From NCBI GenBank assembly GCA_016906335.1, contig JADEYG010000009.1, forward strand, positions 992,001 to 1,056,000: a stretch of 64,000 nucleotides of DNA, in the 5' to 3' direction. This document shows positions 36,673 through 59,600 of this stretch, one piece after another; position 1 is the stretch's first letter; each line of letters opens with the position of its first letter. The DNA comes from Novakomyces olei (taxonomy: Eukaryota). The notes beneath the pieces were generated by a model. The model was not told where the DNA came from. It did not search any database and was given only the letters and a program-made list of their open reading frames with translations. Position numbers and translations under genes: made by a program.

Positions 36673-39600
36673 TTATTTTCTACACTCTTCAATACGGGTC
36701 AGCATGCGCTTGTAAACTTCAATACAATCCCGGGCGGAACTTGCACTGCTACCTTCGAGCAGAGCCAGCGACTTTGCAATTCCAGCACGGTACCGAACCA
36801 GACTCGCTCGGCGATCGACACTATTGAGCGCCTCGTACAATCCATCGTACTCGTCTTGCCTGTGCAAATGAGCGTGATTCAATTTAGCGTCAATATCGAC
36901 CATTTGCTCCGGCTCCAAAAGCAATTCCAATACTTTTGGTGATGCGAATCGCACGCAAGCAATCTTGTCGATACCAACGCTCTTCAGTACCATTTTTATG
37001 GCCGTATAACCAGTCGGTTCAAACCCGGAAAGATGAAGCAAATGGAGTGGGATATCCGATATTTCAAGCTTGGGCAATTGCTCTGCCGACACTGTCTTTG
37101 TGACCCATGAAGAAGCACCCGGCAGAGCCGTACTCGCACCAGTTGCTGAGTCAAGAGAAGAGGATTTGTCCTCATCATCATCGTCGTCTTCGTCTTCGTC
37201 AAAGGGGAAAGAGGTTGAGCGACGCTTTTTGCTTTTCCGGCTTGGTAGATCATGATCCAAGTCGTCCTTTAATTCTCCCTCTGAACCTGAATCCTGAGCC
37301 GAACCTGAGCCATACTCGGAAGGAGACCCATCCGTATTATTATTATTACCTTCTCTTGCTTTAGGCGGCAGTTTAACAGCCCGTCTTGCTGTTGCTCCCT
37401 CACGTTTTCGGATTCTGAACCCGTCAAGCGGAGGCAGACCGATAGCCGCGTTCAATCGTCCTGCAGTATTCGTTGCCAAATGCTCTTGCCGAATTTCGTG
37501 CCGGACCCGTTTGGACACTGCTGTTGACCATTCGAGCGGGATGAGGACATCAAAGTTGGCTTCTATTGGCCTTTTCTCCGTCATATAATCATTGGCTTTG
37601 TCGACCTGCCCTTGATCACGATTGCCTTCCTCGTCGTCTGATACTTGAATAATTTCCGTAAAAGATTTTGCCCCGTTTCCAACCGGCTCGTGGGCCGACG
37701 CTTGGTCGTGAGCCCAAGAAGGTTCTTCACTATCAGTGGCAGCATAATCTGCCACACCAGTCTCGCCGTCTTTCGGATCCATAAACAGGTTTCTATTTGT
37801 CGCTGGTAGTGATCTGTCAGCAGGGAGAGCGCAGTACAAATCAGTTGTTGCTACATTACTCGCACTTGTGGTTTCTTCCACGCTTTTTACTAGAGACTTT
37901 TGTTTGTCTGTAGACTTTGTCGGTAAGGTTTGGGCTCTAGACTTTTTCACCAATTTTTTCCCAGTCTTGCTGTCCGCTTGCTTGCTTGCTTGATCTTTTT
38001 CTTTTTGATTGCCGTCACGGCTTTTAGCTATAGACGGCTCGCTTTGCTTTAAACCATTTGGGCTCTGCCCTTTATCATCAGATCGCTCGTTGCCCGATGC
38101 CTTTTGTAAAGAAGACTGCGTTATGGACAAGGTCAGTAGCCGCTCTAATTGCTCAAGACGGGCCATCATACTCCCCAGCTGTGATTTCAGCGTCTTGTTT
38201 TCTTCGAAAATATTGCCATTTTCTAGATGTAGGTTGGCGTTTTGCTCTTGCTCCGTATCTACCAGCGTTCCCGTCTCTGATTTTGGTTCCTTGCTTGGAC
38301 TAGTCTTGGAAATAGACGCCTGCCTTTTGCTCTTGTCCAAATCCCTGGTTTGACCTTGCTCTCTGCCTTCCACTTTTTCACGCTCAGCTTGCAAAGTCTC
38401 CTTTCGAGCCTTTGGATCATCTTCTTGAGCGTTCAATGCCGCCTTTTTGGAAGCATCTCTTCCACGTCCCAAATCTCCATTTTCTTGCTGATTTAATGAA
38501 GCTTCACTTTGAGCCACTGAATGCGTCACAGTTGCCGTTTGACCGTCGCTCCAATCGTATTCTTCTTCGATCCTTTCGTGTATTGCATGAACGTCGCCCA
38601 TCTCCCAGCCTGTATCATCTCCCGGAGGATTTTCAATTTTTTGCTTTTTTTCTGTGATTTCAACGGGCTCTCGTTGATCACTTGGTTCCGGCTTGCTTTG
38701 GCCTTTAGCTTCAGTATCTTCATCGTCATCGTCAGAGAAGAGCTGACTATATATTCCGGGCGTATTGGCGGATAGGCTTTTTACCGATTTTGGTGGATCA
38801 GGAGGTTTAGTATCGTTTTCACTGTCGGACTTTCCATCGTCCGTCCCGGACCACTCCTCATTGATATCTGCATTTTCCGCTAACGCATTTATTCCTTTGG
38901 CTAGAAATTAGCATAGATAAAAATAAATAAAAGTAAATAAACAACCGAGTCATTTGCAAGTCACCTTTTGCTACAGCCTTTATAAATTCAAAATTAAGAA
39001 GCTTCTCAAACGGTTTTGGACTGCTTGGTTCCAAAGATGGCGGATGCTCTGTATTGCCATTCGTATCTTTTTTCGGAATGTTGCTACTTTCGCCATTTGA
39101 TTGTGGATCTTTGACAGATTCCGTCGGAGTCTCTTTGTCCTTTTTCATCTCATTCAAAGCCTCCGCTTTACTCTCTACACTCAACCGATTTGGCTCTTGA
39201 ATGTCAAGTTTCTTGCCATTGACAGTAGCATTGACGCCCTTCTTTACTGTCGTATTTTCCTCACTTGCCTGGACTTGAGCAGGCTTTGTCTGAGCGACTT
39301 TTGTAGGCGTGCCTTTCGCACTCTGGCTCGGTTTGCCTCGACGCATCATATCCTTCCACGATCTTTTCTTGGACGAACCCGGTTCCTCTGTTGAAACGTG
39401 AGGCTGTGGAGCCTGAGACGGAGTTGGCTCCAACTCTGGAGCTGGTGCGGTACTCACAAGAGCAGCAGCAGCAGCAGCTTCCTGTCTTAACAAATTATGC
39501 ATAGGGAATGAAGTGTCGTGCTCATAAGCACCGCTCTCTTCATTGTAGATCTTTTATTAGACAATCACTTCTTGCAAAGATTCAAGGTAAAAGTTTCAAG

Positions 39601-40243
39601 CATGAAATAGGGAAACAAGCTTAAGAAAAAGAAAAGGAAACGGAAAAAAAAGGGTGAAAAAAAGCAAAAAATAAAAGAAGCACAAATAAAAAAAACCAAA
39701 ATAAAAAATACAATTAAAAGCAGGGTACAGATAACAAATGCCGAGAAAAGCAACTAGAAATTATTCTAAACAGAAAAGACAAACATTATAGTAGTCAAAT
39801 AAATTCAAAAAAGCACGTACATCTGGAATAACCATCCCGTGAGCCTTTATAGATTCTGCGCGGCGATCAAACACGTCGTCAGGCAGCACGTCTGGTATTT
39901 GGTCCTCGTTGCGTTCGGCCCAAGAGACAGCAACATTAAGGATCGCTGAACGTAATTGTAGAGCTGACAAATCAACGCGCGATTCACGAAGCAGGCGACC
40001 CAGTTGGCGCAGCATTTGCTGGCCATTATGAAGTTTTTCACAAAGGACATGCTTCCCCTTTCGAATTGCTATACAGCGATAGAGCTTGACACCGCTTATA
40101 TGTGTTGGTAACGTACTGCCCTCGGTGTTACAGGCTGCGCAGGCCACAATATTGCGAGCCGCACTATACAATTGAGTCAGAGCTTCATTTTCCAGCGCTG
40201 TTAATTGCAGTACGCGTCTCACATGTTGCTCTTCTTGAGACAT
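36673..40243 (-). CDS. Orphan ~1090-aa protein (3 exons): N-terminal Cys4 zinc ribbon, long disordered core, small C-terminal alpha/beta domain
   Basis: ORFs 39761-40243, 38858-39502 and 36673-38601 join in frame via GTACGT..CTAATAAAAG (~39820-39551) and GTGACT..GCTAATTTCTAG (~38964-38902) introns. N-terminal CAAC..YRC..LCEK. Confidence 0.7.
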
Positions 40244-40569: not shown

Positions 40570-40650
40570 TACATTTTATTGTTCTACATTTTATTGTTCT
40601 ACATTTTATTGTTCTACATTTTATTGTTCTACATTTTATTGTTCTATATT
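40570..40650. repeat. 15-bp tandem repeat (ACATTTTATTGTTCT) x~5
   Basis: Visible array between the RNase III and orphan genes. Confidence 0.9.
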
Positions 40651-40748
40651 TTATATGTCTATATTTGTCATTTCCTTTATTTAGCGGATATTCACTGCCC
40701 CTAATAATAGAGATAAGAAGCGTTCATAAACAAGATTCGTAGTCATAT

Positions 40749-43202
40749 TCACGGCTTTGGTTTAGGACGATTAATAAGATTTCCAGTCTTATCCACCTCC
40801 ACACCGAGTTCTTTAACTTCAGGTATCGCCAGCTCTAAAGCCTTCATGGCCGCTCTGGTCTGAGCAAAACCCAGGTTCACATCCTTCCCTATCCCATACT
40901 GTGCACCGCCTATACGACAGGCAATAGTTTTGCAGGGGAAAGGGTGAGGTTTCTCATGAACCTCGACATACTCAATTCGACGAAGCGATCGGGGGAATCC
41001 ACGGTACACAATTGCCTGTAATTTTTGCTTTGCATTCATATCAAGAGGCCCAAAGTCCTCATACAAACTGGCTTCTGCCCGTACTTTAAATTTCTGTACC
41101 ATAGGTGCTGATATCTGCCGGAACCAGGTGTAAGATTCTGCGTTTTTGCACTCGAGCATAAGGGCTCCAATGTACACTTTGAACTCATCAGCATAAGCAA
41201 ATCCATCGATAGACCCTCTGACAGTGGTCAGATTCTTGCGCAAACTACTGCGATCCTGGAAATCATACATTTTCCGATAAAATTCTAGTGAATAATGGGA
41301 AACGAGGTCGAATCTCATACGCTGAAGCTGTTCTCTTCGCCAGTGAGGAAATTGGTCGTAAGCTACACGCCCTGCTAGCGACATTAAGGCAATATCACCA
41401 ATAAATTCGAGTCTGTCAGCAGCCAAACCCTTGCGCGTGAGTGACGAGAGAGTGTCTTTATCCAGCTCCTCCCCTTCGTCCAAATCCAAGCGCAAAACAG
41501 TTCGAAGGTCTGTTGATTCAATGAGTGGAACATCGGGAAAGTCTTCGGATTCTTCATCTTCCCTAAGATCCTCGTCACCGTCTTTCTCCTTGTGGGCTTC
41601 ATTTATGTTATTTTTGCTTTCCACGCTATTATTGATACTGTTATTATTATTATTATTATTATTTTCAGCAGCAGCTACCTCGATTCTGACATCGGTTCCA
41701 GGTTCAAATTGCACATCATTCCCATCAGCACCACCTTTGCCAGCTTCAACAACGACAATATTATCTAAATTAGTTACATTTTCCGCGACATCTTTGGTCT
41801 CTTTGGCTTCTTTTTCCCTTCTGCTCAGAATCGAAGCGTCCATTAGCTGGTCATCATCGTCCGAGACGACGGAGGTAGAGGATACGGAGTTTGCTCTGTG
41901 TGTTGTTGCCGAAATATATACCGCCGGCTCTGCCTGCCTACTATTTCTGGATTCTTGAACAAGGGTTTGAGCACGAATAACTGCTTCAAACCCTTCCGTA
42001 TGGTCCGAAGAATGGCCATTTTCAGACTTCGAATCAGACCCACTCTCTCCTTCAACCAAGGCACCAACAACCGGCCCTTTATCCTTTGCATTTATATCAA
42101 TAGCATCTACATCGTTCGGTTGAGCGACATTTGTTTCCACCTGTACAAAGGAAGACCATGAATTTGGTAGAGCACTCGCCCGATCATTGTCTATAGTCCA
42201 GGCCTTTCTCACACCATGATGAGGATGCAAACTTCCGGTCGGGGGAGGAGAGCCACTGTCGTTTCGACCAGTAGAATCTCGACCAGTATCATTAGGCGTA
42301 GAGGCTGAATTAGCAGTAGACGCAGAAAGGCCTTCCTGGTCTTTTGCGTCAGAGTATTGTTGGCTTCTGCTTCTTCTGCTGCTGCTACCACTGCCACTGC
42401 GATCACTGATACTCCTATTTTGTGAGTATTCGGGTTCAGACTCGTCGGAATCGGACTCTGATCCAAGATGAACCATTTCTGCATCAGTATCAAAGTGCAT
42501 TCGCTCCTTCCCTGCAATTTCGCGTTCCTTGATTGATCTTTTCCGCAATCTCCGCATTTTTTGCCATTCATTACGGTCTTTTTCGAGCACATCTTCCACT
42601 GCGCCAGGCTCCTCTACAGCGTAATCCATCATTGACTCCCGACTCTTGTCTTTGTGCGCTTTGGCAAAAGTGCCGGTTTCGTCCTTGACAGTAAAATGTT
42701 CAGGTACTGCTCCGTCCTTTACCGCTTCGTTCTTTCCGCCCTTTTTGTTTTCGCTATCGTCTCCTTTACCCTCATCCTCAGCCTCGTCATCGTACTCTAC
42801 GTCCCGTTCTGATCCAGATCCGTTCTGCATTTCCTCGTCGTCCGAGAGAGACGGCTCCGGTACAATCTTTTGCTTCAGAGGTAGCATTTGAGCTCTTGCA
42901 TCAGCGCTCAATTCAATATTGAAAACGGCACTTGTTACGTCTGGCGACGCGTTACGCGCTGTATCAGATGCCGGAGACCTTTCTTGCTCAGTGCTAATTC
43001 GAGCGGTTTCGGACTGGTCTGAAGGCTTTAAAAGCCGCTCACCTATTTTGTCTACGCGCTCATGCTCCTCCTCATCATCGACAGTAATAGAAAGCGGAGA
43101 AGAAACGCGCAGCCGTTTCTGCGCTCTTTCAACAGCCGCCACAGATTCATAGACGGGCGAAGACTCTCCCGCTGCCGGACCAGGAGCCTTGCTGTCAACC
43201 AT
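40749..43202 (-). CDS. Pac1/Rnt1-like RNase III + dsRBD protein with degenerate active site and long acidic N-terminus (start uncertain)
   Basis: DRLEFIGD signature, AYDQFP, LVSH, FAYADEFKVYIGAL, then dsRBD DMNAKQKL..IACRIGG..GIGKDVN..AQTRAAMKALE. Confidence 0.85.
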   Translation of the reverse strand: MVDSKAPGPAAGESSPVYESVAAVERAQKRLRVSSPLSITVDDEEEHERVDKIGERLLKPSDQSETARISTEQERSPASDTARNASPDVTSAVFNIELSADARAQMLPLKQKIVPEPSLSDDEEMQNGSGSERDVEYDDEAEDEGKGDDSENKKGGKNEAVKDGAVPEHFTVKDETGTFAKAHKDKSRESMMDYAVEEPGAVEDVLEKDRNEWQKMRRLRKRSIKEREIAGKERMHFDTDAEMVHLGSESDSDESEPEYSQNRSISDRSGSGSSSRRSRSQQYSDAKDQEGLSASTANSASTPNDTGRDSTGRNDSGSPPPTGSLHPHHGVRKAWTIDNDRASALPNSWSSFVQVETNVAQPNDVDAIDINAKDKGPVVGALVEGESGSDSKSENGHSSDHTEGFEAVIRAQTLVQESRNSRQAEPAVYISATTHRANSVSSTSVVSDDDDQLMDASILSRREKEAKETKDVAENVTNLDNIVVVEAGKGGADGNDVQFEPGTDVRIEVAAAENNNNNNNNSINNSVESKNNINEAHKEKDGDEDLREDEESEDFPDVPLIESTDLRTVLRLDLDEGEELDKDTLSSLTRKGLAADRLEFIGDIALMSLAGRVAYDQFPHWRREQLQRMRFDLVSHYSLEFYRKMYDFQDRSSLRKNLTTVRGSIDGFAYADEFKVYIGALMLECKNAESYTWFRQISAPMVQKFKVRAEASLYEDFGPLDMNAKQKLQAIVYRGFPRSLRRIEYVEVHEKPHPFPCKTIACRIGGAQYGIGKDVNLGFAQTRAAMKALELAIPEVKELGVEVDKTGNLINRPKPKP

Positions 43203-43874
43203 CAAGCTCACTACGAAAAACGGAACAGCGAATCAGCATCAATTATCAACCCAGGCTAATCTTGGCTCATTTTACTTCTGTGCTTTGAAGACGTTTAAGC
43301 TCGTAAAAGCGCAATTTCGCCAATTGCTCTTGTCTACCCTACCATTAAAAGCACTATGATTAAAAGCGTAATACTCCAAGAAAACCCTTATTGCTCTTAT
43401 CCGGAAAACCCTAGTTGCACGGTAGAGCTGACAATCTCGGTCAAGGCAGATTGTGCATTCTGGCGTCGTGCGCTTATGGGCAGTTGCGATAACTGTTGTC
43501 TGCTCCGATGAGGATTGGCTGGCAAAGTTTCTTTGTTGTGTCACAAACACAAACGCAACTGAAGTCTAAGCCGGTTTGGAAATAAGAATTGCATTGGTTT
43601 GCCTATGGTTCAATATTGATAATCGCGGTAACCCTATTGGCTGCTCTTGGCTTTACGTCGGCATTTGACCGTCCTACGATATGATCCTGTAGCTCTTGAC
43701 AGTGCTGGACAAAGAAGCTCGTAATCATTGATTGTGTATATTTTGTATATTATTCTACGCTCTCGCTACGATCCGCAAGCAAGGAGAGAAAATAAAGCAA
43801 AGCAACACAGACACGCGTCGACTAGTACAAAACAAAAAGGAGATCAAATAATCGTACAACCGGAACCTTTAATA

Positions 43875-45830
43875 ATGGCCATGGCAATTGTTATCGCAGC
43901 CACAGCGGCAGTTACTTACCTGCTCTACTGGTTAAACAACCGGCTTGAAGTTCTCTCTGACTTGGGAGTACTTTTATTCTTTTTGTACCGCACAGACCTG
44001 TACCAGTGGTGGTACCGTCGGCGCGGTCGGATCAGCCTGTTTTACAGGCTACAGGAGCAAGCACAGTCAAGGCCGAATGCTGTTTTTTTACGCCCAGATC
44101 ATGGAGCGGATGTGACCTTTGCCGAAACGCTGGACAGAAGCACCCGTTGGGCTTATTTCTTACTTGATTCTGGTCTTAAACGCGGTGACCGATTGGCAAT
44201 TGTGTTTGGCAATTCTGATAACTTTGTCTACGTTTTTCTCGCTTGCACAGCGATCGGAGTGATTCCGGCTTTTGTTAATTTCAACTTGTCTGGTCAAGTA
44301 CTCTTGCACTGCATAACCGTGAGCCAAGCAAGTATTGTCCTCTTTGAGTCGCGCTATGTGTCACAGATGGAAAGTATTGCTAAACAGTTGGAGGCTGCAA
44401 ACGTGGAGGCAGTAGCCTTTACCGGGTTCCAACAATTGTGGCCTCTGTCGTACAAATGGCCACGGGTTGTTGATTGGCAAGATATAGACAAAATGACCCC
44501 CACTCGGCCCCATCAGACCCCAATTACACCCCCGCACTGTGGCTGGAACGATGCGCTGTGCCTTATCTACACTTCGGGAACTACCGGAATGCCCAAGGCC
44601 GCAGTAGTAGCAAACTCAAAGTACCTTTTTGGTGCAAATTTGGGTATTCACCTTATGCAGCTCGGCCGCCATTGGCCATGGAGAAAGCAAAAATGGCCCG
44701 ATGTTGTTTACGTGTCCATTCCACTCTACCATTCCACTGGTGCCATGTTTGGGCTAGTGGCCGCCCTTTTGTCCGGAACGACTCTTGCCATTGGGACGAG
44801 TTTTAGTGCTCGTGCCTTTTGGAAAGAGTGCATAAGACTGCGGGCGACTCATATAGTATATATAGGCGAGCTTTGCCGGTACCTTGTAAATGCCCCGTCT
44901 GCTCATTCTCCAGAAGCCCACCAGCATCATGTCCGCTGTGCTTTTGGCAATGGATTACGACCCGACGTTTGGCACAAGTTTCGAGAGAATTTTGGGATAA
45001 AGAGAATTGTAGAGTTTTATGCTTCCACGGAGGGAACTTCAGCTCTGTTTAATGCTTCTTCCGATGGTCGCGGCGAGGGCGCGGTAGGCCGTTTAGGCCT
45101 TTTTGGGCTTTGGAAACTGGCTGCTTTTAGTGCCATTGTCAAAGTCGATCCACAAACAGGCGATTTGCTCCGCGACAGCCGGGGACACTGTATCCGGACC
45201 CGTGCAAACGAACCCGGTGAGCTGCTGCAGGTTGTAGAGCGAAAAAAGATTGATTTCACGGGGTATTATAACAGCAAGGCCTCCACACAATCAAAGCTGG
45301 TACACAATGCCTTTTGCAAGGGCGATACTTGGTACCGTACGGGCGATCTTATGGAAAAGGACAGGCACGGTTACTTTAGATTTTGTGATAGAATGGGCGA
45401 CACGTTCCGTTGGAAGGGAGAGAACGTGTCTACTGCGCAGGTCGAACACGTAATAAACTCGTTTCCGGGTGTTTGTGAGTCCAATGTTTACGGATCTCGG
45501 TTGCCCGGATACGAAGGACGCATCGGCTGTGCGGCTCTGCCACGTGACCTGCAGCACAATCTTGATTTTCCTGCTCTTGCGCTTCATGTAGAAGCCAATT
45601 TGCCAAAGTACGCGAGACCGATTTTCTTGCGATTCACTGACCTGGAACATACTGCTACGAACAAACAGCAAAAGCAGCGTTTACGCGACGAAGGAGTGGA
45701 TCCGGCATGCGTGTCGCCAAGGAATGACGCGGTTTATTGGCTGGTTGGCCAGCCGGGTGGCCGACCGGATTATCTGCCTTTCAAGGCAGATGACTGGGAC
45801 GCAATCGCTAGCGGTCAGGCTCGGCTTTGA
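43875..45830 (+). CDS. FAT1: Very-long-chain acyl-CoA synthetase / fatty-acid transport protein
   Basis: LIYTSGTTGMPKAA, YIGELCRYL, FGNGLRPDVW, EFYASTEG, DRMGDTFRWKGENVST. N-terminal TM, C-terminal ARL (PTS1-like). Confidence 0.93.
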   Translation: MAMAIVIAATAAVTYLLYWLNNRLEVLSDLGVLLFFLYRTDLYQWWYRRRGRISLFYRLQEQAQSRPNAVFLRPDHGADVTFAETLDRSTRWAYFLLDSGLKRGDRLAIVFGNSDNFVYVFLACTAIGVIPAFVNFNLSGQVLLHCITVSQASIVLFESRYVSQMESIAKQLEAANVEAVAFTGFQQLWPLSYKWPRVVDWQDIDKMTPTRPHQTPITPPHCGWNDALCLIYTSGTTGMPKAAVVANSKYLFGANLGIHLMQLGRHWPWRKQKWPDVVYVSIPLYHSTGAMFGLVAALLSGTTLAIGTSFSARAFWKECIRLRATHIVYIGELCRYLVNAPSAHSPEAHQHHVRCAFGNGLRPDVWHKFRENFGIKRIVEFYASTEGTSALFNASSDGRGEGAVGRLGLFGLWKLAAFSAIVKVDPQTGDLLRDSRGHCIRTRANEPGELLQVVERKKIDFTGYYNSKASTQSKLVHNAFCKGDTWYRTGDLMEKDRHGYFRFCDRMGDTFRWKGENVSTAQVEHVINSFPGVCESNVYGSRLPGYEGRIGCAALPRDLQHNLDFPALALHVEANLPKYARPIFLRFTDLEHTATNKQQKQRLRDEGVDPACVSPRNDAVYWLVGQPGGRPDYLPFKADDWDAIASGQARL

Positions 45831-49568: not shown

Positions 49569-52500
49569 ATGAGTTTCAACGAAGGCAATATGCCTCCGCC
49601 TCAGCCGCCTCAGCAGCAACAGGGCGTCGTTTACCCTCGATACCAGCGCAGCAATCGGCCGCCTTTAAGAATTGCTCATCGGCGCTCACCGTCAGAACTG
49701 ACTCCACTAATGCTGGAACAGTATGCATTGCAGCAGCAAATTGAACTATTACAGCAGCAGCAGCAGTTGCTACAACAACAACAGCAGCAACAAGCAGCTC
49801 AGCAGCAACAACAGCAGCAATCTCAGCATCAGCAAGCTCAGCCTCATCAATTAGGACCTGCTTTTGCTCCGACTTCTTCGCTTGGATCTTCAGGAAGTTT
49901 TGTCGGAGTCTTTGATGGGATGGGAATCCCTAACGGCAATCAAGGTCCTGCAGGCCATCGCAGAGGCCAGAGTATAGGCCGGTCCCAGTCTCCCTCTCGT
50001 GCTACTGGCGGCAGCTTGAGCCACGGGTACTCTACATCTCAGTCTCAGCCTCCTCAGCGGTGGACTGGTGGATCTGGTCATTCACGGAGGCACAGTCTCG
50101 TACTGTCGGAGGCTAAAAGAGCCGCTGAGCTGGCACAGGCTCAGAGGAATCTGCAAAACCCACAGAGCCCTCGTCAGGCTCCGAGCAGTACTGCCAATGC
50201 TAGTACTAGTAGTAATACTAATGCTAGTACTAGTAGTAATACTAATGCTAGTACTAGTAGTAATACTAATGCTAATACTAATACTAGTACTAGTACTAGT
50301 ACTAGTGCTAATACTAACACTAATACTAGTGCTAATACTAATACTAGTGCCCTACCCAGCTGGCACCTGCAGCAGCCTTCTGATGGAGGAAGCGAGTCTT
50401 CTGCAGCAGCTGCTAGAGAAGGCTCTCCTCCACGGAGATCCGGGTACATTCCTACGCCGAGCCATGGCAGGAGCGCCTCTCAGGGAGGAGGCAGTTTCAA
50501 GTTCCCTCTTTCCCCGAGTTCGTCAGCGCAAAGATCGCACTTGAACCCTCCTGCCCAAGGGTTCCATGAGCGAAGGCAGTCGCAAGGCCGAGGCGGTCGG
50601 AGCAGTATAAACAACAAAAGCAGCTCCTCGAGCTATATGAATAATGGCAGCAGCAATACCAACTATGGCAGCAATTTTGGCAACAGTTTTGCTGGCAACT
50701 TTGCCGAGCAAGGTTCGGGTATAAGCAGCTCCACTACTGGCGGAGGCCATTGGCGAGGCAATTCTATCGGCCATGCGAGGTCAGCGTCGCAGACGCAGGG
50801 CGGCAGTAGTGAGCAATCGACCTTCCAGCCGGGCCACAGACCACGTGGGTCTTACAGCAGTTCTATAGGCGGTGGATCTATTTCTATTTCGCAGTTTATG
50901 AGCTCTAATCCTCAGTTTGCGGGTATGCCGGGTGGAGTAATGCCGCTGCAGCTAAACACTGCCGGATTCCAGGGCCCGATCTCTGGTCCAGGACCAATGT
51001 CTGGGCCGATAGGAGCCGGAGGAGCTGCTGCGCCCTTGATGTCTCCTCAGATTATGCAGCAGCAGCAGCTACAGCATCTGAGCCAGGCTAATCAGGCACA
51101 GAGAAAAAGCCTCTATGCTCCGTACCTTCCGCAGGTAACTCTGCCGCCTCTTTTAGCGGATGGACGGCTCGTCTCTGGGATTCTGAGGGTCAACAAGAAG
51201 AACAGGTCAGATGCGTATGTCACCACAGACTTGCTGGACCATGAGATTTTCATTTGCGGATCAAAAGACCGTAATCGCGCTCTTGGTGGGGACCTTGTAG
51301 CGGTTGAGCTGCTGGACGTTGACGAAGTTTGGGGCTCTAAGCGTGAAAAAGAGGAGAAAAAGAAGCGCAAAGACGGAGGCGGCCTGGGCGGAGGCAGTTC
51401 GACGCTGGCCGGTAGCAGCAGCAGCAGCCTTCCACCGGCCTCTGGCTCTTCAGGCTCCGGCCTGAGACGCCAGGGCAGTATTCGGGACAGACCAGAGGCG
51501 AAGAAGAAGGACGATATTGAAGTGGAAGGGCAGAGCCTTATGCTGGCGGACGAAGAGGAGGTCAGTGACGAGCAGAAACCGGTCTACGCTGGCCATATTG
51601 TGGCAGTAATCGAACGCGTTCCTGGCCAAATGTTTTCAGGAACACTGGGACTCCTTCGGCCGTCGAGTGCAGTTACAAGAGAAAAGCAGGAGGCAGAGAG
51701 ACGTGAGAAAGAAGGAGGAGGCAGTGGAGTAAGTACAGCCGAAGCTTCAGCCGTACCTGAGCCGAAAAGATTTGCAGAGAGGCCCAAGATTGTATGGTTC
51801 AAGCCTACAAACAAGCGAGTTCCGCTGATAGCTATCCCAACAGAACAGGCGCCAAAAGACTTTGTAGAGATGCATGCAAAGTATGCAAATCGGCTCTTTG
51901 TAGCGTCAATTAAGCGCTGGCCAATAACGTCACTGCACCCCTTTGGCACTCTGGTCGAGGAGCTTGGGGATATAGGCAATATTGCAGTGGAGAATGAGGC
52001 AATCCTGAGAGACAATTCCTTTGCCGGAGACGAGTTTGCCGACGCAGTTTGCCGAAGCGTTCCTGCTCTCGAAGCCGGAGAAGTAGTGACAGAGGCAGAC
52101 GTTTGTGCTCGTGACGATTTCCGTCAAGAGTTTACCTTTAGCATAAGCGCCTCTGCCGACTCTGTACCCGTTGCTGTTCATGTAAAACCAAACGCTGAGC
52201 TCGACGGCCATGTCGATGTCGGTGTCCACGTGGCAGATATTGCCCACTATGTACGTCCAGGATCAGTGGCCGATCGAGAAGCTCGTAAACGTGGAACTGC
52301 CGTTTTCCTTATCGACCGCAGTGTTGCCCTTTTCCCTCGAGAGATTACTCACTCGCTGGCCAGTCTAAAGCCTGGCGAAGACCATCTCTCTCTCAGCGTT
52401 GTTCTTACCTGTAATCCTGCCAATGGGGATATTGTAAGGACTCTGTTTTCCACTGGCGTAGTGCGGTCTGATGCTGCTCTTTGCCTGGACTCTGTCGCAG

Positions 52501-54305
52501 CTATACTCGACGGCGAAGGAGAAGGAGACGAAGGTAATGGAGACAGAGAAGACAGAGACGAAGACAGAGAAGACAAAGACAAAGACAAAGACAAAGACAA
52601 AGACAAAGACAAAGACAAAGACAAAGACAAAGGCAAAGACAAAGGCAAAGACAAAGACAAAGGCAAAGACAACATCCCCGGTCTCGTTCTGGGCGGAGAC
52701 TCCTTACAGACGGTACTGCCACAGCTGAAATCAAAACTGCAGCTGCTTGATAAGCTGACTATGCGAATGAGGGAGCAAAGAGTCGCTGGTCCTGTTCGAG
52801 CAGAAGGCCTTCGTCTCCTTTTCCTGTCGGACGACGAGGACGAGCAGCCGAGTGTAGTTGGCAGCATTTTCAATCCTCAACGGTACCGCAATATCACAGA
52901 GGAGATTGAGATTGCAGCAAACTTGGCTGTCGCTCAACGGCTGTCCCAAGATCTGCCAGAGGAGGCACTTTTACGGAAACAGAATCCTCCGTTCCAGTAC
53001 AGAATGGACGCGTTTACTGCTCGAATGAAACGGCTCCGGTTCCCTGCCGACAGCAGCTCTGGCGGAGCCATCGAGTCCTCCATCTACCAGATCCCAGACG
53101 AAAGTATCCGACGCGTTATGGAAGTAGGGCTCTCCAAGATTGTGCCGAGAGCAGAGTACTTTGTTGCCGCCGAGTACGATTCCTCACAGTGGTCACATTA
53201 CAGTATAAATACGCCCGTTTACACTCATTTTGTGGCCCCGTTCAGACGGTATGCCGATGTTGTTGTCCACAGACAGCTCCGGGCTGCCTTTGATCTCGGC
53301 ACTGCTTCTTCTTCTTTTTCTACTGGTACTACTACTGGTACTACTGCTTCTACTACTAATGCTACTAATGCTTCTACTACTAATGCTCCTACTGCTCCTA
53401 CTACTTCTTCTTCTTTTGCTCCTACTACTTCCTCTTCTTTTGCTCCTTCTTCTTCTTTTGCTCCTTCTTCTTCTGTTTCGCCTCCGCCTCCTCTTCAGCC
53501 CTCGTTGCCGCAGCAGTCGGCTGCGGCAACAGAGGACGTCGAGTCCCTGATCAAGCTGACGGACCAGCTAAACTACAAAAAAGACTCGGCCATGAATGCG
53601 CAAGAGCAGAGCATCCACCTGCACTTGTGCTCTATGATTGCAATGTTCTCTCAAACGGCAAAGCCGATTATCAGAAATGCGGTAGTGCACACTTGCCAGG
53701 ACTCGTCGTTTGACGTGTTTGTCTCAGAGTACGGGATTGAGAAACGTGTCCATTTGGACCAACTGCCACTGGAAAAGGCCGAGTATGATAGCCGGAATCG
53801 TGTGCTCGAGCTGTACTGGATGAGGGGCGTAGACCCGCTCACGTACGTTCCCCCTGGAACAGAGAGACCGTGGCAGTTCAAGTTTGGGTCAGCGTCAGAG
53901 GCCGATGAGCTGCACAGTACAATGATGGAGATTAGCGCTCTTTCTCTCTCGGAGGGAACCGGAACCAGAACCGGAGCCGGAGCCGATTCAGCGGGTAAAG
54001 GCAGTCAGCCTGCTACTGCTGTGCCTGTTGTCCACGCTTCGCAGAGCGCTCCGGCTTCTCCCGTAGTCAAAGCGAAATCGCCAAACTCGAAATCGGAGCC
54101 GGTGAGCCCTCACACGGATCTTTTGGCCTCTGAAATGCTGTTTGCTATCCCCAACGACAGATTGCAAGTACGCGAGAATGGGCAGTTTGTTCAGATAGTC
54201 AAAGAGCTGGATACACTGCCGATTATCTTAAGAGCTGAAGTCGAGTTTCATTCTCCCGCACTTTGTGTCGCAAAACCAATCAACCCGTTCCTCGCTGCCA
54301 AGTGA
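49569..54305 (+). CDS. SSD1: Ssd1/Sts5 RNB-family RNA-binding pseudonuclease
   Basis: IAHRRSPSELTPLMLEQ, RKSLYAPYLPQ, GILRVNKKNRSDAYV, ICGSKDRNRAL, KPTNKRVPLIAIPTEQAP, YTHFVAPFRRYADVVVHRQL. Confidence 0.95.
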   Translation: MSFNEGNMPPPQPPQQQQGVVYPRYQRSNRPPLRIAHRRSPSELTPLMLEQYALQQQIELLQQQQQLLQQQQQQQAAQQQQQQQSQHQQAQPHQLGPAFAPTSSLGSSGSFVGVFDGMGIPNGNQGPAGHRRGQSIGRSQSPSRATGGSLSHGYSTSQSQPPQRWTGGSGHSRRHSLVLSEAKRAAELAQAQRNLQNPQSPRQAPSSTANASTSSNTNASTSSNTNASTSSNTNANTNTSTSTSTSANTNTNTSANTNTSALPSWHLQQPSDGGSESSAAAAREGSPPRRSGYIPTPSHGRSASQGGGSFKFPLSPSSSAQRSHLNPPAQGFHERRQSQGRGGRSSINNKSSSSSYMNNGSSNTNYGSNFGNSFAGNFAEQGSGISSSTTGGGHWRGNSIGHARSASQTQGGSSEQSTFQPGHRPRGSYSSSIGGGSISISQFMSSNPQFAGMPGGVMPLQLNTAGFQGPISGPGPMSGPIGAGGAAAPLMSPQIMQQQQLQHLSQANQAQRKSLYAPYLPQVTLPPLLADGRLVSGILRVNKKNRSDAYVTTDLLDHEIFICGSKDRNRALGGDLVAVELLDVDEVWGSKREKEEKKKRKDGGGLGGGSSTLAGSSSSSLPPASGSSGSGLRRQGSIRDRPEAKKKDDIEVEGQSLMLADEEEVSDEQKPVYAGHIVAVIERVPGQMFSGTLGLLRPSSAVTREKQEAERREKEGGGSGVSTAEASAVPEPKRFAERPKIVWFKPTNKRVPLIAIPTEQAPKDFVEMHAKYANRLFVASIKRWPITSLHPFGTLVEELGDIGNIAVENEAILRDNSFAGDEFADAVCRSVPALEAGEVVTEADVCARDDFRQEFTFSISASADSVPVAVHVKPNAELDGHVDVGVHVADIAHYVRPGSVADREARKRGTAVFLIDRSVALFPREITHSLASLKPGEDHLSLSVVLTCNPANGDIVRTLFSTGVVRSDAALCLDSVAAILDGEGEGDEGNGDREDRDEDREDKDKDKDKDKDKDKDKDKDKGKDKGKDKDKGKDNIPGLVLGGDSLQTVLPQLKSKLQLLDKLTMRMREQRVAGPVRAEGLRLLFLSDDEDEQPSVVGSIFNPQRYRNITEEIEIAANLAVAQRLSQDLPEEALLRKQNPPFQYRMDAFTARMKRLRFPADSSSGGAIESSIYQIPDESIRRVMEVGLSKIVPRAEYFVAAEYDSSQWSHYSINTPVYTHFVAPFRRYADVVVHRQLRAAFDLGTASSSFSTGTTTGTTASTTNATNASTTNAPTAPTTSSSFAPTTSSSFAPSSSFAPSSSVSPPPPLQPSLPQQSAAATEDVESLIKLTDQLNYKKDSAMNAQEQSIHLHLCSMIAMFSQTAKPIIRNAVVHTCQDSSFDVFVSEYGIEKRVHLDQLPLEKAEYDSRNRVLELYWMRGVDPLTYVPPGTERPWQFKFGSASEADELHSTMMEISALSLSEGTGTRTGAGADSAGKGSQPATAVPVVHASQSAPASPVVKAKSPNSKSEPVSPHTDLLASEMLFAIPNDRLQVRENGQFVQIVKELDTLPIILRAEVEFHSPALCVAKPINPFLAAK
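52572..52670. repeat. (GACAAA)n coding repeat encoding Asp-Lys inside the Ssd1 RNB domain
   Basis: Hexamer array with GGCAAA variants. Confidence 0.95.
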
Positions 54306-56608: not shown

Positions 56609-59600
56609 ATGCACAACATTAGCATACTCGGACATGAGACAGTCTTGGAGTATGCGGACGATATCGCAGCAGTCTCGTTTGAAGGCGGATCGCGATCGCT
56701 GCTTATAGCGCGTGGGAATGGTCGCGAGTTTCGGCTGGAGAGAATCAACGTATGATCAAAGACGATTATGATTAATTTCGACAAAATTTGTTTTATTTTA
56801 TTTTTAATTTTTAATTCTTCCTTTGGTTCTCGTTTTCGTTTCCGTTTATTTATATTTTCTAGCCTGTCTATTTGTTTTTTATTAATTGTTTATTTCGTAA
56901 TTTATTTTTTTTATTTAATTATTGTCTTGTTTCCAACATTTGACTAATGCTAGCCCGGTGGAGAAAGGATACGGCTATCAGAGTTTAGCAGTACTGCTTC
57001 ATCGACTGAGAGCACAGCAGACGCAATTATCAGCCTTAAATCCGTAGCTGAAACGGGTCAAATTAGCATAGTTCTCTCGGGCGGTGACATCATTGTTGTG
57101 AACGAGGACGATGAAGGGGCGGTGGAGTACATTGGTTCCGTAGACGAAGGAATCGATGCGGCTGATTGGTCGCCGGACGAGCAGCTGCTCGTTCTGGCCA
57201 CTAAAGCGGACACGCTAATCTTTATGACTGCCCATTTCCAAGTATTGCACACGGTCCCCGTGAAAGTTTCTGACGACGATTTAATTCTACAAAAGCAGGT
57301 CAGTGTTGGATGGGGACGAGCAGAGACACAGTTCCGTGGAAAGCACGCTCGAGCAGCAGCAGCTGCTGCTGCTGCTGCTTCAGGTCCACGTGATCCAACA
57401 CTGCCGACGAGTATAGATGAGGGAACTTTAAGCGAGGCAGACGATAGGGCTGTTCGCCTTAGCTGGCGAGGCGACGGAGCCTGTTTTGCTCTCTCTCGTA
57501 TTGAAAACGGGCGGAGGGCAATTCGAGTGTACTCACGCACCTCTGAGCTTGACAGTATAAGCGAGCCAGTAAACGGGCAGGAAGGCGCTCTCGCTTACGC
57601 TCCCAACGGCTCGCTTATCGCTACAGTTAAGCGAGACGTAGATCAACAGCAGATCATTTTCTTTGAACGAAACGGGCTACGCCATGGCGAATTTGATCTC
57701 GGGGCAGTGACTGCCGTTCGGCAATTGGCTTTTACAGCCGACAGCAGAGCCCTGCTTGTAGTATTAGAGGACTCAGTGCAAGTCTGGGTGCGCAGCAATT
57801 ATCATTGGTACTTGAAGCAGGAACTTTCTACGCTTGACCAGAGCGGAACCCGTGCCCTTATCCACCCTGAACAAGGATCCGTATTGGCGCTGTGGACGGC
57901 GGAGTCGGTGCAGCTGTTTCAATTGGGCACACAGGTATACCGTCAGCAGCAGGAGCAGAATATAAATAAAAAGATGGAAAATAAAATGATGGAAAATGAA
58001 ATTATGGAAAATAAAATGATGGAAAATAAAATTATAAAAAATAAAAATACTGATAGTGATCTCGATCTGGGACTAGTAGCGGTCGTGGACGGCCGCCAAC
58101 TGCTGCTGACACCTCTGGCAACTGCCAATGTGCCACCGCCAATGTCGCTGGCTCAAGTGGAAACGAGCTCTGTTCCGCGCACAGTGGCAGTCTCGTCTCA
58201 GTATATTGCCGCCGTTGGAGACTCGGTTGTCGATGTCTTTGAATGGACTGCCAAGGGACCATTATTGAAGTTTTCCCTTGATTACAAGGACCAGTACATC
58301 TCCGAGTTTGCCGTTCGATCGGCCACTTTTATTGGGAAAAGTGTAGAAAACGGCAGCGGTAGAGGGAACGGAGACAAATCCGCTCCGGAAGCTCTTATTA
58401 TCGCCTGTCAGGAGGGAAACTTGCTGGTGCTTGATGTCGACAGTCAGACGGTAGAGGTCTGTTTGATCCAGCACGGTATAACTGACGTTTGCCACATTGC
58501 TCGAGTCATGGGGACAAGCAGCGAGTTTATTATCGCTGGCAGGACTGGCAGTTTAGCCTCTGCTGATCTTGCTGACCAATCTGCCAGGATCCTTCCTTTC
58601 AAACACGCCGGCATTATGGCTGTTCAGGCCTGCAGAGTTGGAGAGCAATTGCTCACTTTTACCCAATGCGCAGGCGGCCGATTGTTTGCCAATGACCGGC
58701 TATTAACAAACTCTAGTACTTCGTTTATGGCCACTTTAAACCACCTAATTTTTACTACGGCCCAGCATTTTGCCAAAATTGTGGTTTTACAGCCTTCAGT
58801 ATCGGACCTGCACGTGCCTGACGATGAGGCAGCGGGCCGGCTCGATGAGAGAGCCAGATCGGTCGAACGAGGATCTAGGATTATCATGATTTGCCCTTCT
58901 CAGCGTAGTCTGGTCCTGCAACAGGGCCGTGGCAATTTAGAGACTGTCTACCCACGGGCACTAGTGCTCGAGGGAATACGAGAAAATATACGAAATTCAC
59001 AGTACCGTGAAGCGTTCCTGGCCTGCCGGACTCACCGAATCGATATGAATATACTACACGACTACGATCCCGAGCGGTTCGCTGCCAATATCGACTTTTT
59101 TGTCAATCAGTTGGAGACACCGGATAATTTAGACCTTTTTATCTCGTCATTAAAGTACGTGTTTATCTACTTTTTCATTTATTATCTATTTTTCCATTTA
59201 TTATTTATTTTTCATTCATTGTCTATTTTTTCATTTATTATCTATTTTTTCATTTATTGTTTATTTTTCCATTTATTATTTATTTTTCATTCATTGTCTA
59301 TTTTTTCATTTATTATCTATTTTTTCATTCATTGTCTATTTTTTCATTTATTATCTATTTTTTCATTTATTATCTATTTTTTCATTTATTATTTATTTTT
59401 CATTTATTATGTGTAATAAATCTAACGCCAGACCGGAAAACGTCACACTTACGCGATATCCCGACCACCGGGCGGCGAGTACGAGTGCGCAGGACCAATT
59501 CCCAGCGGCAAAAGTCAACGGCATAACCGACTCTCTTATCCAGTGTCTCGAGTCGGAGCACAAAACGACGCATGAGAAATCAATAATCACCTGTTACATG

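What the first reader, a model, noticed from the sequence alone, without database searches (positions are those of the whole stretch)
40749..43202. Naturally inactivated RNase III (Pac1/Rnt1-like) carrying the classic E->K substitution
Seen: signature DRLEFIGD is retained, but the second motif reads FAYADEFKVYIGAL instead of K-x-x-ADxFEAYIGAL (AAA codon at 41180-41178), and LVSN is LVSH. Aligned by eye to Rnt1, three of six active-site residues (N278, K313, E320 equivalents) are replaced, while the ORF and dsRBD are intact. Known: E. coli RNase III E117K (rnc70) binds dsRNA without cutting and is dominant negative. A ~570-aa acidic disordered N-terminus precedes the domain. Inference: a dsRNA-binding pseudo-RNase III paralog that could shield or sequester dsRNA, or poison the active enzyme or RNAi.
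Basis: partly seen in the sequence, partly recalled or inferred. Interest (0 to 1): 0.78.

Follow-up and report, generated by a model that had tools for sequence, protein, structure and literature searches.

The report
Naturally dead Rnt1/Pac1-type RNase III
A fungal gene encodes a relative of the RNA-cutting enzyme RNase III whose key catalytic residue is replaced exactly as in laboratory "binds but cannot cut" mutants, so it probably binds double-stranded RNA without cleaving it; inactive copies of this kind are already known in other yeasts.

Summary
Window 40749-43202 (-) is an intact 817-codon ORF. Its last ~255 residues are an Rnt1/Pac1-type RNase III domain plus one dsRBD (PDB Rnt1p 4oog, E=5e-21). 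The Glu that bridges both Mg ions (E. coli E117, Rnt1 E320) is Lys, encoded by AAA at 41180-41178. N278 is His and K313 is Phe. The E65 equivalent is also Arg. An independent sequencing run carries the identical sequence, so this is not an assembly error. Among 150 homologues filled at that column, 149 have Glu.

The fold-defining residues, the predicted canonical dimer interface and most of the dsRBD are kept. The gene sits on the longest branch of the family tree (3.36 against a median of 0.44). The first 562 residues are acidic (pI 4.6), low in complexity, and unrelated to known Rnt1 N-terminal domains.

Best reading: a maintained, catalytically dead pseudo-RNase III that dimerises and binds dsRNA. 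It is not a mitoribosomal protein.

Not settled: whether it is a paralogue. No genome is held and no close orthologue was found. No RNA data exist.

Precedent is Candida Cdl1, so this is a new variant of a known kind and of moderate interest.

The parts
40749..43202 (-). Whole ORF, 817 codons plus stop (protein P0001)
   Evidence: In-frame codon-usage score is 0.245 (N part) and 0.146 (C part), against 0.09-0.23 for 12 other long ORFs of the window; other frames are negative. No CTAAC branch site inside.
41517..43202 (-). N-terminal acidic, low-complexity region, residues 1-562
   Evidence: pI 4.57, net -53, hydrophobic fraction 0.19. AF2 single-sequence mean pLDDT 42, with 472 of 562 residues under 50. 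No similarity to the N-terminal parts of 111 homologues. No Pfam family.
42498..42602 (-). Basic helix, residues 201-235 (KDRNEWQKMRRLRKRSIKEREIAGKER...). It is the only N-terminal segment with pLDDT 66-80. Nuclear-localisation-like by inference.
   Evidence: helix H201-235; local net charge +2 in an otherwise acidic region. The NLS reading is inference.
41058..41516 (-). RNase III domain, residues ~563-715, starting with the FPDVPLIESTDL entry motif that matches the family's PPxLPxI
   Evidence: Rnt1p 4oog/5t16, E about 5e-21; consensus; pLDDT 84.8; Foldseek top hits Rnt1p.
41394..41417 (-). Signature motif DRLEFIGD, residues 596-603. The E41 and D45 equivalents are kept; the E38 equivalent is Asp.
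41331..41336 (-). Arg623-Glu624, where the family has Glu-Gly (E65-equivalent Glu in 121 of 152; Gly in 145 of 152)
   Evidence: codons read.
41295..41297 (-). His636 (CAT) in place of the family's Asn (Rnt1 N278 equivalent; N in 133 of 152)
41199..41201 (-). Phe668 (TTT) in place of Lys (Rnt1 K313 equivalent; K in 102 of 138 filled rows; the alignment is loose here)
41178..41180 (-). Lys675 (AAA) in place of the metal-bridging Glu (E. coli E117 / Rnt1 E320; E in 149 of 150)
   Evidence: Identical in contigs of runs X1 and X2.
40833..41054 (-). dsRBD, residues ~717-790. Ala-Lys-x-x-Leu of helix 1, G-x-G and A...AA..AL are kept; Gly778 (40869-40871) replaces the usual Lys/Arg.
   Evidence: dsrm 18.3 bits; Rnt1p dsRBD chains 1t4l/1t4n/1t4o, E 7e-4 to 3e-3; 1t4o_A, TMt 0.68.
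43203..43874 (.). 672-base intergenic region shared with the divergently oriented FAT1-like acyl-CoA synthetase gene (43875-45830, +). Presumed promoter region.
   Evidence: An in-frame stop lies 10 codons upstream of the ATG. The promoter role is inferred.

Best explanation
The gene encodes a maintained but catalytically dead member of the eukaryotic class-1 RNase III lineage (Rnt1/Pac1 type): one RNase III domain followed by one dsRBD. The domain still folds and still forms the usual RNase III homodimer through the signature-motif helix. The protein probably still binds double-stranded RNA.

It cannot build the two-Mg2+ site. The Glu that bridges both metals is Lys675. The neighbouring Asn is His636 and the neighbouring Lys is Phe668. 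The E65-equivalent Glu is Arg623.

It therefore most likely acts as a non-cleaving dsRNA- or hairpin-binding protein. The basic helix in the N-terminal region suggests it is nuclear. It could compete with an active RNase III for substrates, or pair with one. The 562-residue acidic tail is a lineage-specific addition of unknown role.

Shown: sequence, fold, the substitutions, their rarity, the reality of the codon, and accelerated divergence.

Inferred: loss of cleavage (from E. coli, Aquifex and yeast mutants), retained RNA binding, nuclear location, and the existence of an active RNase III elsewhere in the genome.
For: (1) Family. phmmer of residues 560-817 against PDB gives Rnt1p 4oog_C at E=5e-21, 5t16_A at 5.9e-21, P. 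stipitis Dicer 7dey at 4.8e-15 and K. polysporus Dcr1 at 1e-8 (the 7dey title is). The AF2 model from a 60-sequence alignment has pLDDT 84.8, and its best Foldseek hits are the Rnt1p chains at E about 1e-10.

(2) Dead site. Lys stands opposite E320 of Rnt1. E is found in 149 of 150 homologue rows, and the one other K (P0063) also lacks the D45 and Asn equivalents. This Glu binds both metals and is functionally essential (PMC3867540, passage). E117K, A or Q give no cleavage in vivo or in vitro while dsRNA binding is kept (PMC8708148, Table 1 text). rnt1 E320K is described as catalytically inactive (PMC4169253). Aquifex E110K was crystallised bound to dsRNA (entries 1rc7 and 1yyo, listed).

(3) The codon is real. 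A 1312-base contig of run X2, from another study, covers 40617-41928 with 0 differences. The X1 contig covers 40617-43400 with 0 differences.

(4) Maintained, not decaying. The ORF is an open 817 codons with gene-like codon usage in both halves. Of the 34 columns conserved in at least 80% of the family, Q keeps 28. Two changes are conservative. The four non-conservative changes (G624E, N636H, E675K, A676V) lie at or next to active-site residues.

(5) Relaxed or shifted constraint. The end branch is 3.36 against a median of 0.44 in a 75-row tree, longer than the other two degenerate proteins (1.99 and 1.55). Q is 22-29% identical to homologues that are 21-49% identical to each other. The neighbouring FAT1-like protein is only slightly more divergent than normal: 35-42% to the seven named fungi, against 36-56% among those seven.

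(6) Dimer. The two-copy model scores 0.56 against a best control of 0.01. That mark was reached by 21 of 30 microbial proteins solved as pairs of one chain and 0 of 23 solved as single chains. On eukaryotes it was reached by 17 of 29 and 0 of 30. The runs agree in at least 89% of contacts, and the partner pLDDT is at least 65. The interface is residues 34-71 of the piece, which is the signature-motif helix region. RNase III dimers are solved, so the pass may be from memory: it shows likeness, not binding.

(7) The RNase III + dsRBD piece is unusually basic: pI 9.26, net +7, higher than 99% of 107 homologues (median pI 5.99). This fits nucleic-acid binding.

(8) Precedent. Candida Cdl1 is an RNase III paralogue with altered Mg-binding residues, called inactive and of unknown function (PMC3579876; PMC11047096).
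Against: No biochemical data exist for this protein; loss of cleavage rests on mutants of other enzymes.

Three of the four core carboxylates (E599, D603, D672) are kept. Two extra Glu residues lie next to lost positions (E624 beside R623; E673 beside D672).

The dsRBD has Gly778 where 88 of 108 homologues have Lys/Arg, so RNA binding may be weakened.

No orthologue was found. There is no test of purifying selection, and no evidence that the Lys is old (best hit 34% identity; none in metagenome contigs).

No second, active RNase III of this organism could be looked for.

The tree was a 'quick' search. Placement of long branches is unreliable, and part of the long branch may reflect a generally divergent lineage.

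The enrichment of changes at active-site columns is weak when only the six catalytic columns are counted: 3 of 6 against 3 of 28, Fisher p=0.053. The p=0.001 version counts flanking residues chosen after the fact.
Confidence: 0.7

Rival explanations
1. It is the organism's sole Pac1/Rnt1 orthologue and is still an active endonuclease. It would use a rearranged site, for example with Glu624 and/or Glu673 taking over metal binding, and would have diverged quickly in a poorly sampled fungal lineage.
For: E599, D603 and D672 are kept, and two unusual Glu residues flank the lost positions. The lineage is deep: the FAT1-like and MEF2-like neighbours are only 41-44% identical to their best named homologues, so a low identity for an orthologue is not by itself odd. 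No other RNase III was seen, but only 64 kb could be searched.
Against: The bridging Glu is E in 149 of 150 homologues, including other long-branch rows. E117K, A and Q all abolish cleavage in E. coli, and E320K does so in yeast. Four further active-site-area positions are changed as well. Glu673 is at i+1 of D672 on a helix and so points away from the site (inference). The end branch is 7.6 times the median.
Confidence: 0.1
2. It is a recently inactivated gene on its way to becoming a pseudogene, with no function of its own.
For: The active site is degenerate, the branch is very long, no orthologue is detectable among 1.84 billion representatives, and no RNA run is listed (this blank is no evidence either way).
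Against: The ORF is 817 codons without a stop, and an in-frame stop lies just upstream of the ATG. Codon usage in frame matches other genes, in the disordered part too. Q keeps 28 of 34 family-conserved positions. The AF2 fold is confident and the canonical dimer interface is predicted. So much divergence without one frame disruption argues for selection on the frame.
Confidence: 0.08
3. It is a mitoribosomal RNase III-fold protein (mL44/MRPL3 or mL57/MRPL15 type).
For: Those proteins also have an RNase III-like fold without catalysis (recalled). Mitoribosome chains do appear in the Foldseek list (4v1a_h, 3j7y_c, 5mrc_5 and 6ywe_5, E 2.7e-5 to 2.5e-4, 11-15% identity).
Against: No mitoribosomal chain is among the 16 PDB sequences with E up to 10 by phmmer, while Rnt1p scores 5e-21. 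Rnt1p, Dcr1 and bacterial RNase III all rank above them by structure. The N-terminus is strongly acidic (net -53), unlike a mitochondrial presequence (inference).
Confidence: 0.02
4. The Lys codon is an assembly or sequencing error, and the true gene has GAA.
For: None found.
Against: Contigs of two runs from two studies are identical over the codon. X1, which may be the source, has word depth about 1114. X2 has depth 4.55. Five other active-site-area substitutions cannot come from one base error.
Confidence: 0.01

Closest known systems
S. cerevisiae Rnt1p / S. pombe Pac1 (eukaryotic class-1 RNase III)
   Same: One RNase III domain followed by one dsRBD at the C-terminus. Best sequence and structure matches. 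PPxLPxI-like entry motif, signature motif, and a predicted dimer through the same helix.
   Different: The E320, N278, K313 and E65-equivalent residues are replaced. No detectable Rnt1-type N-terminal domain; in its place are 562 acidic, low-complexity residues. The catalytic + dsRBD module is much more basic than in relatives. The branch is very long.
Laboratory catalytic-dead alleles: E. coli rnc70 (E117K), Aquifex E110K, yeast rnt1-E320K
   Same: The same residue is changed to the same amino acid. Those mutants keep dsRNA binding and lose cleavage (PDB entries 1rc7 and 1yyo).
   Different: Here the change is natural, fixed in the two data sets seen, and comes with further active-site changes. 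Dominant-negative behaviour is recalled for rnc70 and was not seen in any call.
Candida Cdl1 (Candida Dicer-like 1)
   Same: A fungal single-RNase III-domain protein whose Mg-coordinating residues are altered. It is regarded as inactive and of unknown function (PMC3579876; PMC11047096).
   Different: Cdl1 is described as Dcr1-like, with the non-canonical Dicer domain structure. Q ends 27 residues after its single dsRBD and scores closer to Rnt1p than to Dcr1. Q falls outside the 45-row budding-yeast clade (97*), with the long-branch caveat. The origin is therefore independent. P0044 and P0063 look like further independent degenerate cases.
Degenerate RNase III-domain partners: mitoribosomal mL44/mL57 and trypanosome editosome KREPB4/5 (recalled, from no call)
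   Same: An RNase III fold kept for dimerisation or RNA binding without catalysis. This gives a model in which a dead subunit pairs with a live one.
   Different: No specific sequence relationship: mitoribosome chains reach only 11-15% identity by structure search. No partner is known here.

Membership tests
Eukaryotic class-1 RNase III (Rnt1/Pac1) | RNase III domain with signature motif (E/D)RLEF(L/I)GD | tested here: met
   DRLEFIGD at 596-603. Rnt1p E=5e-21. AF2 pLDDT 84.8 with Rnt1p as top Foldseek hits. The Pfam Ribonuclease_3 score is below its gathering cut-off (21.7 against 27 bits).
Eukaryotic class-1 RNase III (Rnt1/Pac1) | Single C-terminal dsRBD | tested here: met
   dsrm 18.3 bits, below the cut-off of 23. 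Rnt1p dsRBD chains 1t4l/1t4n/1t4o at E 7e-4 to 3e-3. 1t4o_A TMt 0.68. Conserved A-K..L, GxG and A..AA..AL are kept, but K/R778 is Gly.
Eukaryotic class-1 RNase III (Rnt1/Pac1) | Complete catalytic set (Rnt1 E241, D245, N278, K313, D317, E320; numbering recalled, consistent) | tested here: not met
   E, D and D are kept; N is His, K is Phe and E is Lys. It belongs to the lineage by descent but is not a member of the enzyme class by this criterion.
Eukaryotic class-1 RNase III (Rnt1/Pac1) | Family-type N-terminal (dimerisation) domain | tested here: not met
   phmmer against 111 N-terminal parts gave no hit. A profile built from them scored -7.3 bits over the whole N-terminal query (best single stretch 0.5 bits); the only aligned stretch of note was the PPxLP entry motif. 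These domains diverge fast, so a remote relationship is not excluded.
Eukaryotic class-1 RNase III (Rnt1/Pac1) | Homodimer through the RNase III domain | tested here: inconclusive
   In-silico only: 0.56 against a best control of 0.01. The mark was reached by 21 of 30 solved pairs of one chain and 0 of 23 single chains (eukaryotes 17 of 29, 0 of 30). Contacts agree in at least 89% and pLDDT is at least 65. The pass may come from memory of solved RNase III dimers.
Eukaryotic class-1 RNase III (Rnt1/Pac1) | Mg2+-dependent cleavage of dsRNA or capped hairpins | not testable with these tools
   Needs an enzyme assay.
Budding-yeast non-canonical Dicer (Dcr1/Cdl1) | Second dsRBD after the first | tested here: not met
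   The protein ends at residue 817, 27 residues after the dsRBD.
Canonical Dicer / Drosha | Two RNase III domains in one chain, plus helicase/PAZ or other accessory domains | tested here: not met
   One RNase III stretch only (596-685) and no other Pfam domain. tblastn with six homologues' RNase III + dsRBD regions hits only 40830-41417 at E<0.1.
Mitoribosomal mL44/mL57 | Specific sequence similarity to the mitoribosomal RNase III-fold proteins | tested here: not met
   None among the PDB phmmer hits at E up to 10. By structure only rank 21 and lower, at 11-15% identity.

The most novel reading that the evidence does not exclude
This is not a spare copy but the lineage's own Pac1/Rnt1 orthologue, which has lost catalysis. 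In that case the normally essential pre-rRNA 3'-ETS and sn/snoRNA cleavages would be done by a different nuclease, for example a Dicer as in Candida. The dead enzyme would be kept as a basic dsRNA-hairpin-binding module, regulated by its 562-residue acidic tail and acting as an assembly or surveillance factor.
Probability: 0.12. Interest if true: 0.8.

Novelty: new variant of a known kind. Interest (0 to 1): 0.45.

Why it matters
Inactive RNase III-like proteins recur in evolution. Examples are Candida Cdl1 and, from recall, the mitoribosomal and editosome subunits. The fungal ones still have no known function (PMC11047096).

This protein is a clean natural copy of the classic 'binds but does not cut' mutant in the Rnt1/Pac1 branch. 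It arose independently of Cdl1. Its RNA-binding module is unusually basic and is fused to a very acidic tail. If it is expressed, it offers a natural test of what a non-cleaving class-1 RNase III does: compete with substrate processing, pair with an active subunit, or sense dsRNA.

Its weight is limited. Precedent exists, paralogue status is unknown, and there are neither orthologues nor expression data.

Tried and rejected
- Own-genome search for a second RNase III: no genome is held.
- Word-index protein search with residues 560-817 among proteins of 449-1430 aa: nothing at E<=1e-3. The exhaustive representative search then found only distant relatives.
- Exact look-up: neither P0001 nor the FAT1-like neighbour is in the 15-billion-protein collection.
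- Metagenome contig scan for relatives: 91 pattern matches, none confirmed.
- Earlier notes of this scan, by place, sequence and words: nothing.
- RNA evidence: no RNA holder is listed among the 4 runs, so expression and editing could not be examined.
- Runs X3 and X4 hold only short, unlike pieces.
- dN/dS: impossible. X2 is identical and no orthologue is known.
- N-terminal domain homology search: negative.
- NCBIfam: only TIGR02191 at 34.3 bits against a cut-off of 166.
- ESM Atlas, by features only: assorted RNase III/dsRBD clusters at 0.89-0.93, nothing specific.
- Intron scan of the ORF: no CTAAC site, and one weak in-frame candidate at codon 54.
- Rejected readings: mitoribosomal protein, Dcr1/Cdl1 type, canonical Dicer, assembly error (see the rival explanations and membership tests).
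- Supplementary files of the papers were not opened. Those of the Cdl1 papers may list which residues are altered in Cdl1.
Full report
**Observation**

The window holds an uninterrupted 817-codon ORF on the minus strand at 40749-43202. An in-frame stop lies ten codons upstream of the first ATG. A 672-base spacer separates the ORF from a divergently oriented FAT1-like acyl-CoA synthetase gene.

The Lys codon AAA is at 41180-41178.

Codon usage scored against 12 other long ORFs of the window is gene-like in frame. The N-terminal 562 codons score 0.245 and the C-terminal 255 codons score 0.146. The other ORFs score 0.09-0.23, and all other frames are negative.

The ORF holds no CTAAC branch site and only one weak in-frame intron candidate. 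Introns do exist in this genome: several neighbouring genes match their Pfam profiles only in part, and the ELP1 gene is split.

**What it is**

Pfam sees the RNase III domain (596-685) and the dsRBD (743-790) only below its own thresholds. NCBIfam behaves the same way.

A direct comparison of residues 560-817 with all PDB sequences is unambiguous (the 7dey title is):

| PDB entry | Protein | E-value |
|---|---|---|
| 4oog | Yeast Rnt1p | 5e-21 |
| 5t16 | Yeast Rnt1p | 5.9e-21 |
| 7dey | Pichia stipitis Dicer | 4.8e-15 |
| 3rv0 | K. polysporus Dcr1 | 1e-8 |
| 1t4l, 1t4n, 1t4o | Isolated Rnt1p dsRBD | 7e-4 to 3e-3 |

No mitoribosomal chain appears among the 16 sequences listed at E up to 10.

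An AF2 model built on a 60-sequence alignment is confident: mean pLDDT 84.8, with only a loop at 93-105 of the piece poorly defined. Its best structural matches are again the Rnt1p chains. Next come the yeast Dicers and bacterial RNase III. Mitoribosome chains appear only from rank 21, at 11-15% identity.

The protein ends 27 residues after its single dsRBD. It therefore has the Rnt1/Pac1 architecture and not the two-dsRBD Dcr1/Cdl1 one.

**The active site**

In the alignment to 4oog_C, His636, Phe668 and Lys675 stand opposite the Asn, Lys and Glu of Rnt1p. Their spacing in that chain corresponds to N278, K313 and E320. The numbering offset is recalled. E320K as the catalytic-dead allele is in PMC4169253 (passages).

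I aligned Q with 153 matched stretches from the 150 listed proteins of the exhaustive search. The columns behave as follows:

| Position | Family residue | Residue in Q | Count in family |
|---|---|---|---|
| E117/E320 equivalent | Glu | Lys675 | 149 of 150 |
| Asn column (N278) | Asn | His636 | 133 of 152 |
| Lys column (K313; loosely aligned) | Lys | Phe668 | 102 of 138 |
| E65 equivalent | Glu | Arg623 | 121 of 152 |
| Position after E65 | Gly | Glu624 | 145 of 152 |
| Residue after the bridging Glu | Ala | Val676 | 146 of 150 |

The only other Lys at the E117 column belongs to P0063. That protein also lacks the D45 and Asn equivalents.

The other three core carboxylates (E599, D603, D672) are kept.

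According to the review PMC3867540 (passage), this Glu coordinates both catalytic metals and is functionally essential. Table 1 of PMC8708148 (text seen) lists rnc70 (E117K, A or Q) as having no cleavage in vivo or in vitro, with dsRNA binding retained. Aquifex E110K bound to dsRNA is in the PDB (1rc7 and 1yyo, listed). Loss of cleavage is therefore a well-grounded inference, but it is not a measurement on this protein.

**Not an artefact**

Two public runs hold the stretch. A 7336-base contig of X1 covers 40617-43400 without a difference; X1 may be the source of the assembly. A 1312-base contig of X2, from another study, covers 40617-41928 without a difference, and this stretch includes the codon. 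No RNA run was listed, so expression and editing remain open.

**Maintained or decaying?**

Of the 34 alignment columns that are at least 80% conserved in the family, Q keeps 28. Two changes are conservative (E to D, L to I). Four are non-conservative, and all four lie at or next to active-site positions.

The hydrophobic core, the signature motif and the dsRBD hallmarks (A-K..L, GxG, A..AA..AL) are intact. Gly778 replaces a usually basic residue (K/R in 88 of 108).

A two-copy model gives the canonical RNase III dimer through the signature-helix region, residues 34-71 of the piece.
- The score is 0.56 against a best control of 0.01.
- The mark was reached by 21 of 30 microbial proteins solved as pairs of one chain and 0 of 23 solved as single chains.
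- On eukaryotes it was reached by 17 of 29 and 0 of 30.
- Contacts agree in at least 89% of cases, and the partner pLDDT is at least 65.
- RNase III dimers are solved, so this may be memory. It shows likeness only.

The gene has diverged strongly. In a quick maximum-likelihood tree of 75 rows, its end branch is 3.36 against a median of 0.44. The 75 were the first of 108 rows that cover both domains. The two other degenerate proteins have branches of 1.99 (P0044) and 1.55 (P0063).

Q is 22-29% identical to homologues that are 21-49% identical to one another. The neighbouring FAT1-like protein is only a few points more divergent than is usual between fungal phyla. The acceleration is therefore largely gene-specific.

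Enrichment of changes at the six catalytic columns is only borderline (Fisher p=0.053). The stronger figure (p=0.001) uses flanking residues chosen after the fact.

**N-terminal region**

Residues 1-562 are acidic (pI 4.57, net -53) and poor in hydrophobic residues. They have no Pfam family. They show no similarity to the N-terminal parts of 111 homologues, apart from the PPxLPxI-like entry motif just before the domain.

They are modelled with mean pLDDT 42. The exception is a basic helix at 201-235 (single sequence, so weak evidence).

The RNase III + dsRBD module is unusually basic: pI 9.26, net +7, above 99% of 107 homologues. An acidic tail regulating a basic RNA-binding module is an idea, not a result.

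**Lineage and the paralogue question**

The organism's proteins are not in the large protein collection.

- The FAT1-like neighbour has one unnamed relative at 65% identity. Otherwise it has about 41% at best, with Taphrinomycotina and Pezizomycotina among the first named hits.
- The MEF2-like neighbour's best named hits are Protomyces (43%) and Taphrina (42%).

This points to a poorly sampled, intron-bearing fungal lineage.

The exhaustive search of 1.84 billion representatives found 159 proteins at E<=1e-3. Fourteen were at <=1e-10 and none at <=1e-30. The best was only 34% identical. Named top hits are Rnt1/Pac1-type proteins of Pachysolen, Kazachstania, Candida verbasci and Schizosaccharomyces japonicus.

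Q falls outside the 45-row budding-yeast clade (97*), weakly beside Pezizomycotina sequences. The usual long-branch caveat applies.

No orthologue and no second RNase III could be examined. No genome is held. Nothing else lies in the window. Nothing turned up in metagenome contigs. That an active RNase III exists elsewhere is therefore an inference: class-1 RNase III activity is essential or near-essential in the yeasts studied (CaDCR1 per PMC11047096; the rest is recalled).

**Comparison with what is known**

The closest enzymes are Rnt1p and Pac1. The closest functional analogues are the laboratory alleles rnc70, Aa-E110K and rnt1-E320K.

The closest natural precedent is Candida Cdl1. It is described as an RNase III whose Mg-coordinating residues are altered, inactive, and of unknown function (PMC3579876, passages; PMC11047096, passages).

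Three literature searches listed inactive fungal RNase III only in the form of Cdl1. I saw no report of a natural Rnt1/Pac1-type E-to-K protein, but these searches cover open-access text only.

P0063 and P0044 from the search show that such degeneration has happened more than once.

**Verdict**

The 'pseudo-RNase III' reading is well supported. 'Paralogue' and the proposed cellular roles remain untested.

It is a new variant of a known kind and of moderate interest. Confidence in the best explanation is 0.7.

Noticed in passing
P0063 (422 aa) and P0044 (696 aa), hits: Two other naturally degenerate Rnt1/Dcr1-like yeast proteins. P0063 has the same Glu-to-Lys change plus D45-equivalent Thr and Asn-equivalent Asp. 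P0044 has a degenerate signature (the seven checked columns read ERSDHGE) and a long C-terminal extension. In the tree both sit inside the budding-yeast clade on long branches (1.55 and 1.99).
   Followed up: partly
P0008 (377 aa) and P0016 (325 aa): Schizosaccharomyces japonicus carries two Pac1-named proteins, 49% identical in the domain region. Neither is among the rows listed as deviating at the seven checked active-site columns.
   Followed up: no
window 57224-61031 (+), junction at 59280-59431: The ELP1 gene appears as two overlapping ORFs in different frames. Between them lies an AT-rich tandem repeat of about 20 bases (about 59280-59410), followed by CTAAC and AG. This looks like a repeat-bearing intron.
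   Followed up: partly
window 49569-54305 (+): A 1578-aa Dis3L2-type exoribonuclease (CSD2, RNB and Dis3l2 C-terminal domains). About 740 residues before the first recognised domain have no Pfam match.
   Followed up: no
window 36673-38601 (-), 38858-39502 (-), 39761-40243 (-), 61678-63531 (-): Long ORFs (642, 214, 160 and 617 aa) without any Pfam family at E<=1e-5.
   Followed up: no
window 40602-40650: Contigs of all four runs break or change here, just downstream of the gene's stop. Short high-depth pieces and loose ends made of GTACTG-like repeats suggest a repeated element or microsatellite shared with other organisms in runs X3 and X4.
   Followed up: no
window 41627-41678: The Asn-rich run of the protein (about codons 509-525, including NNNNNNNN) was skipped as a repeat by the read-laying tool. 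Its length could vary between strains.
   Followed up: no
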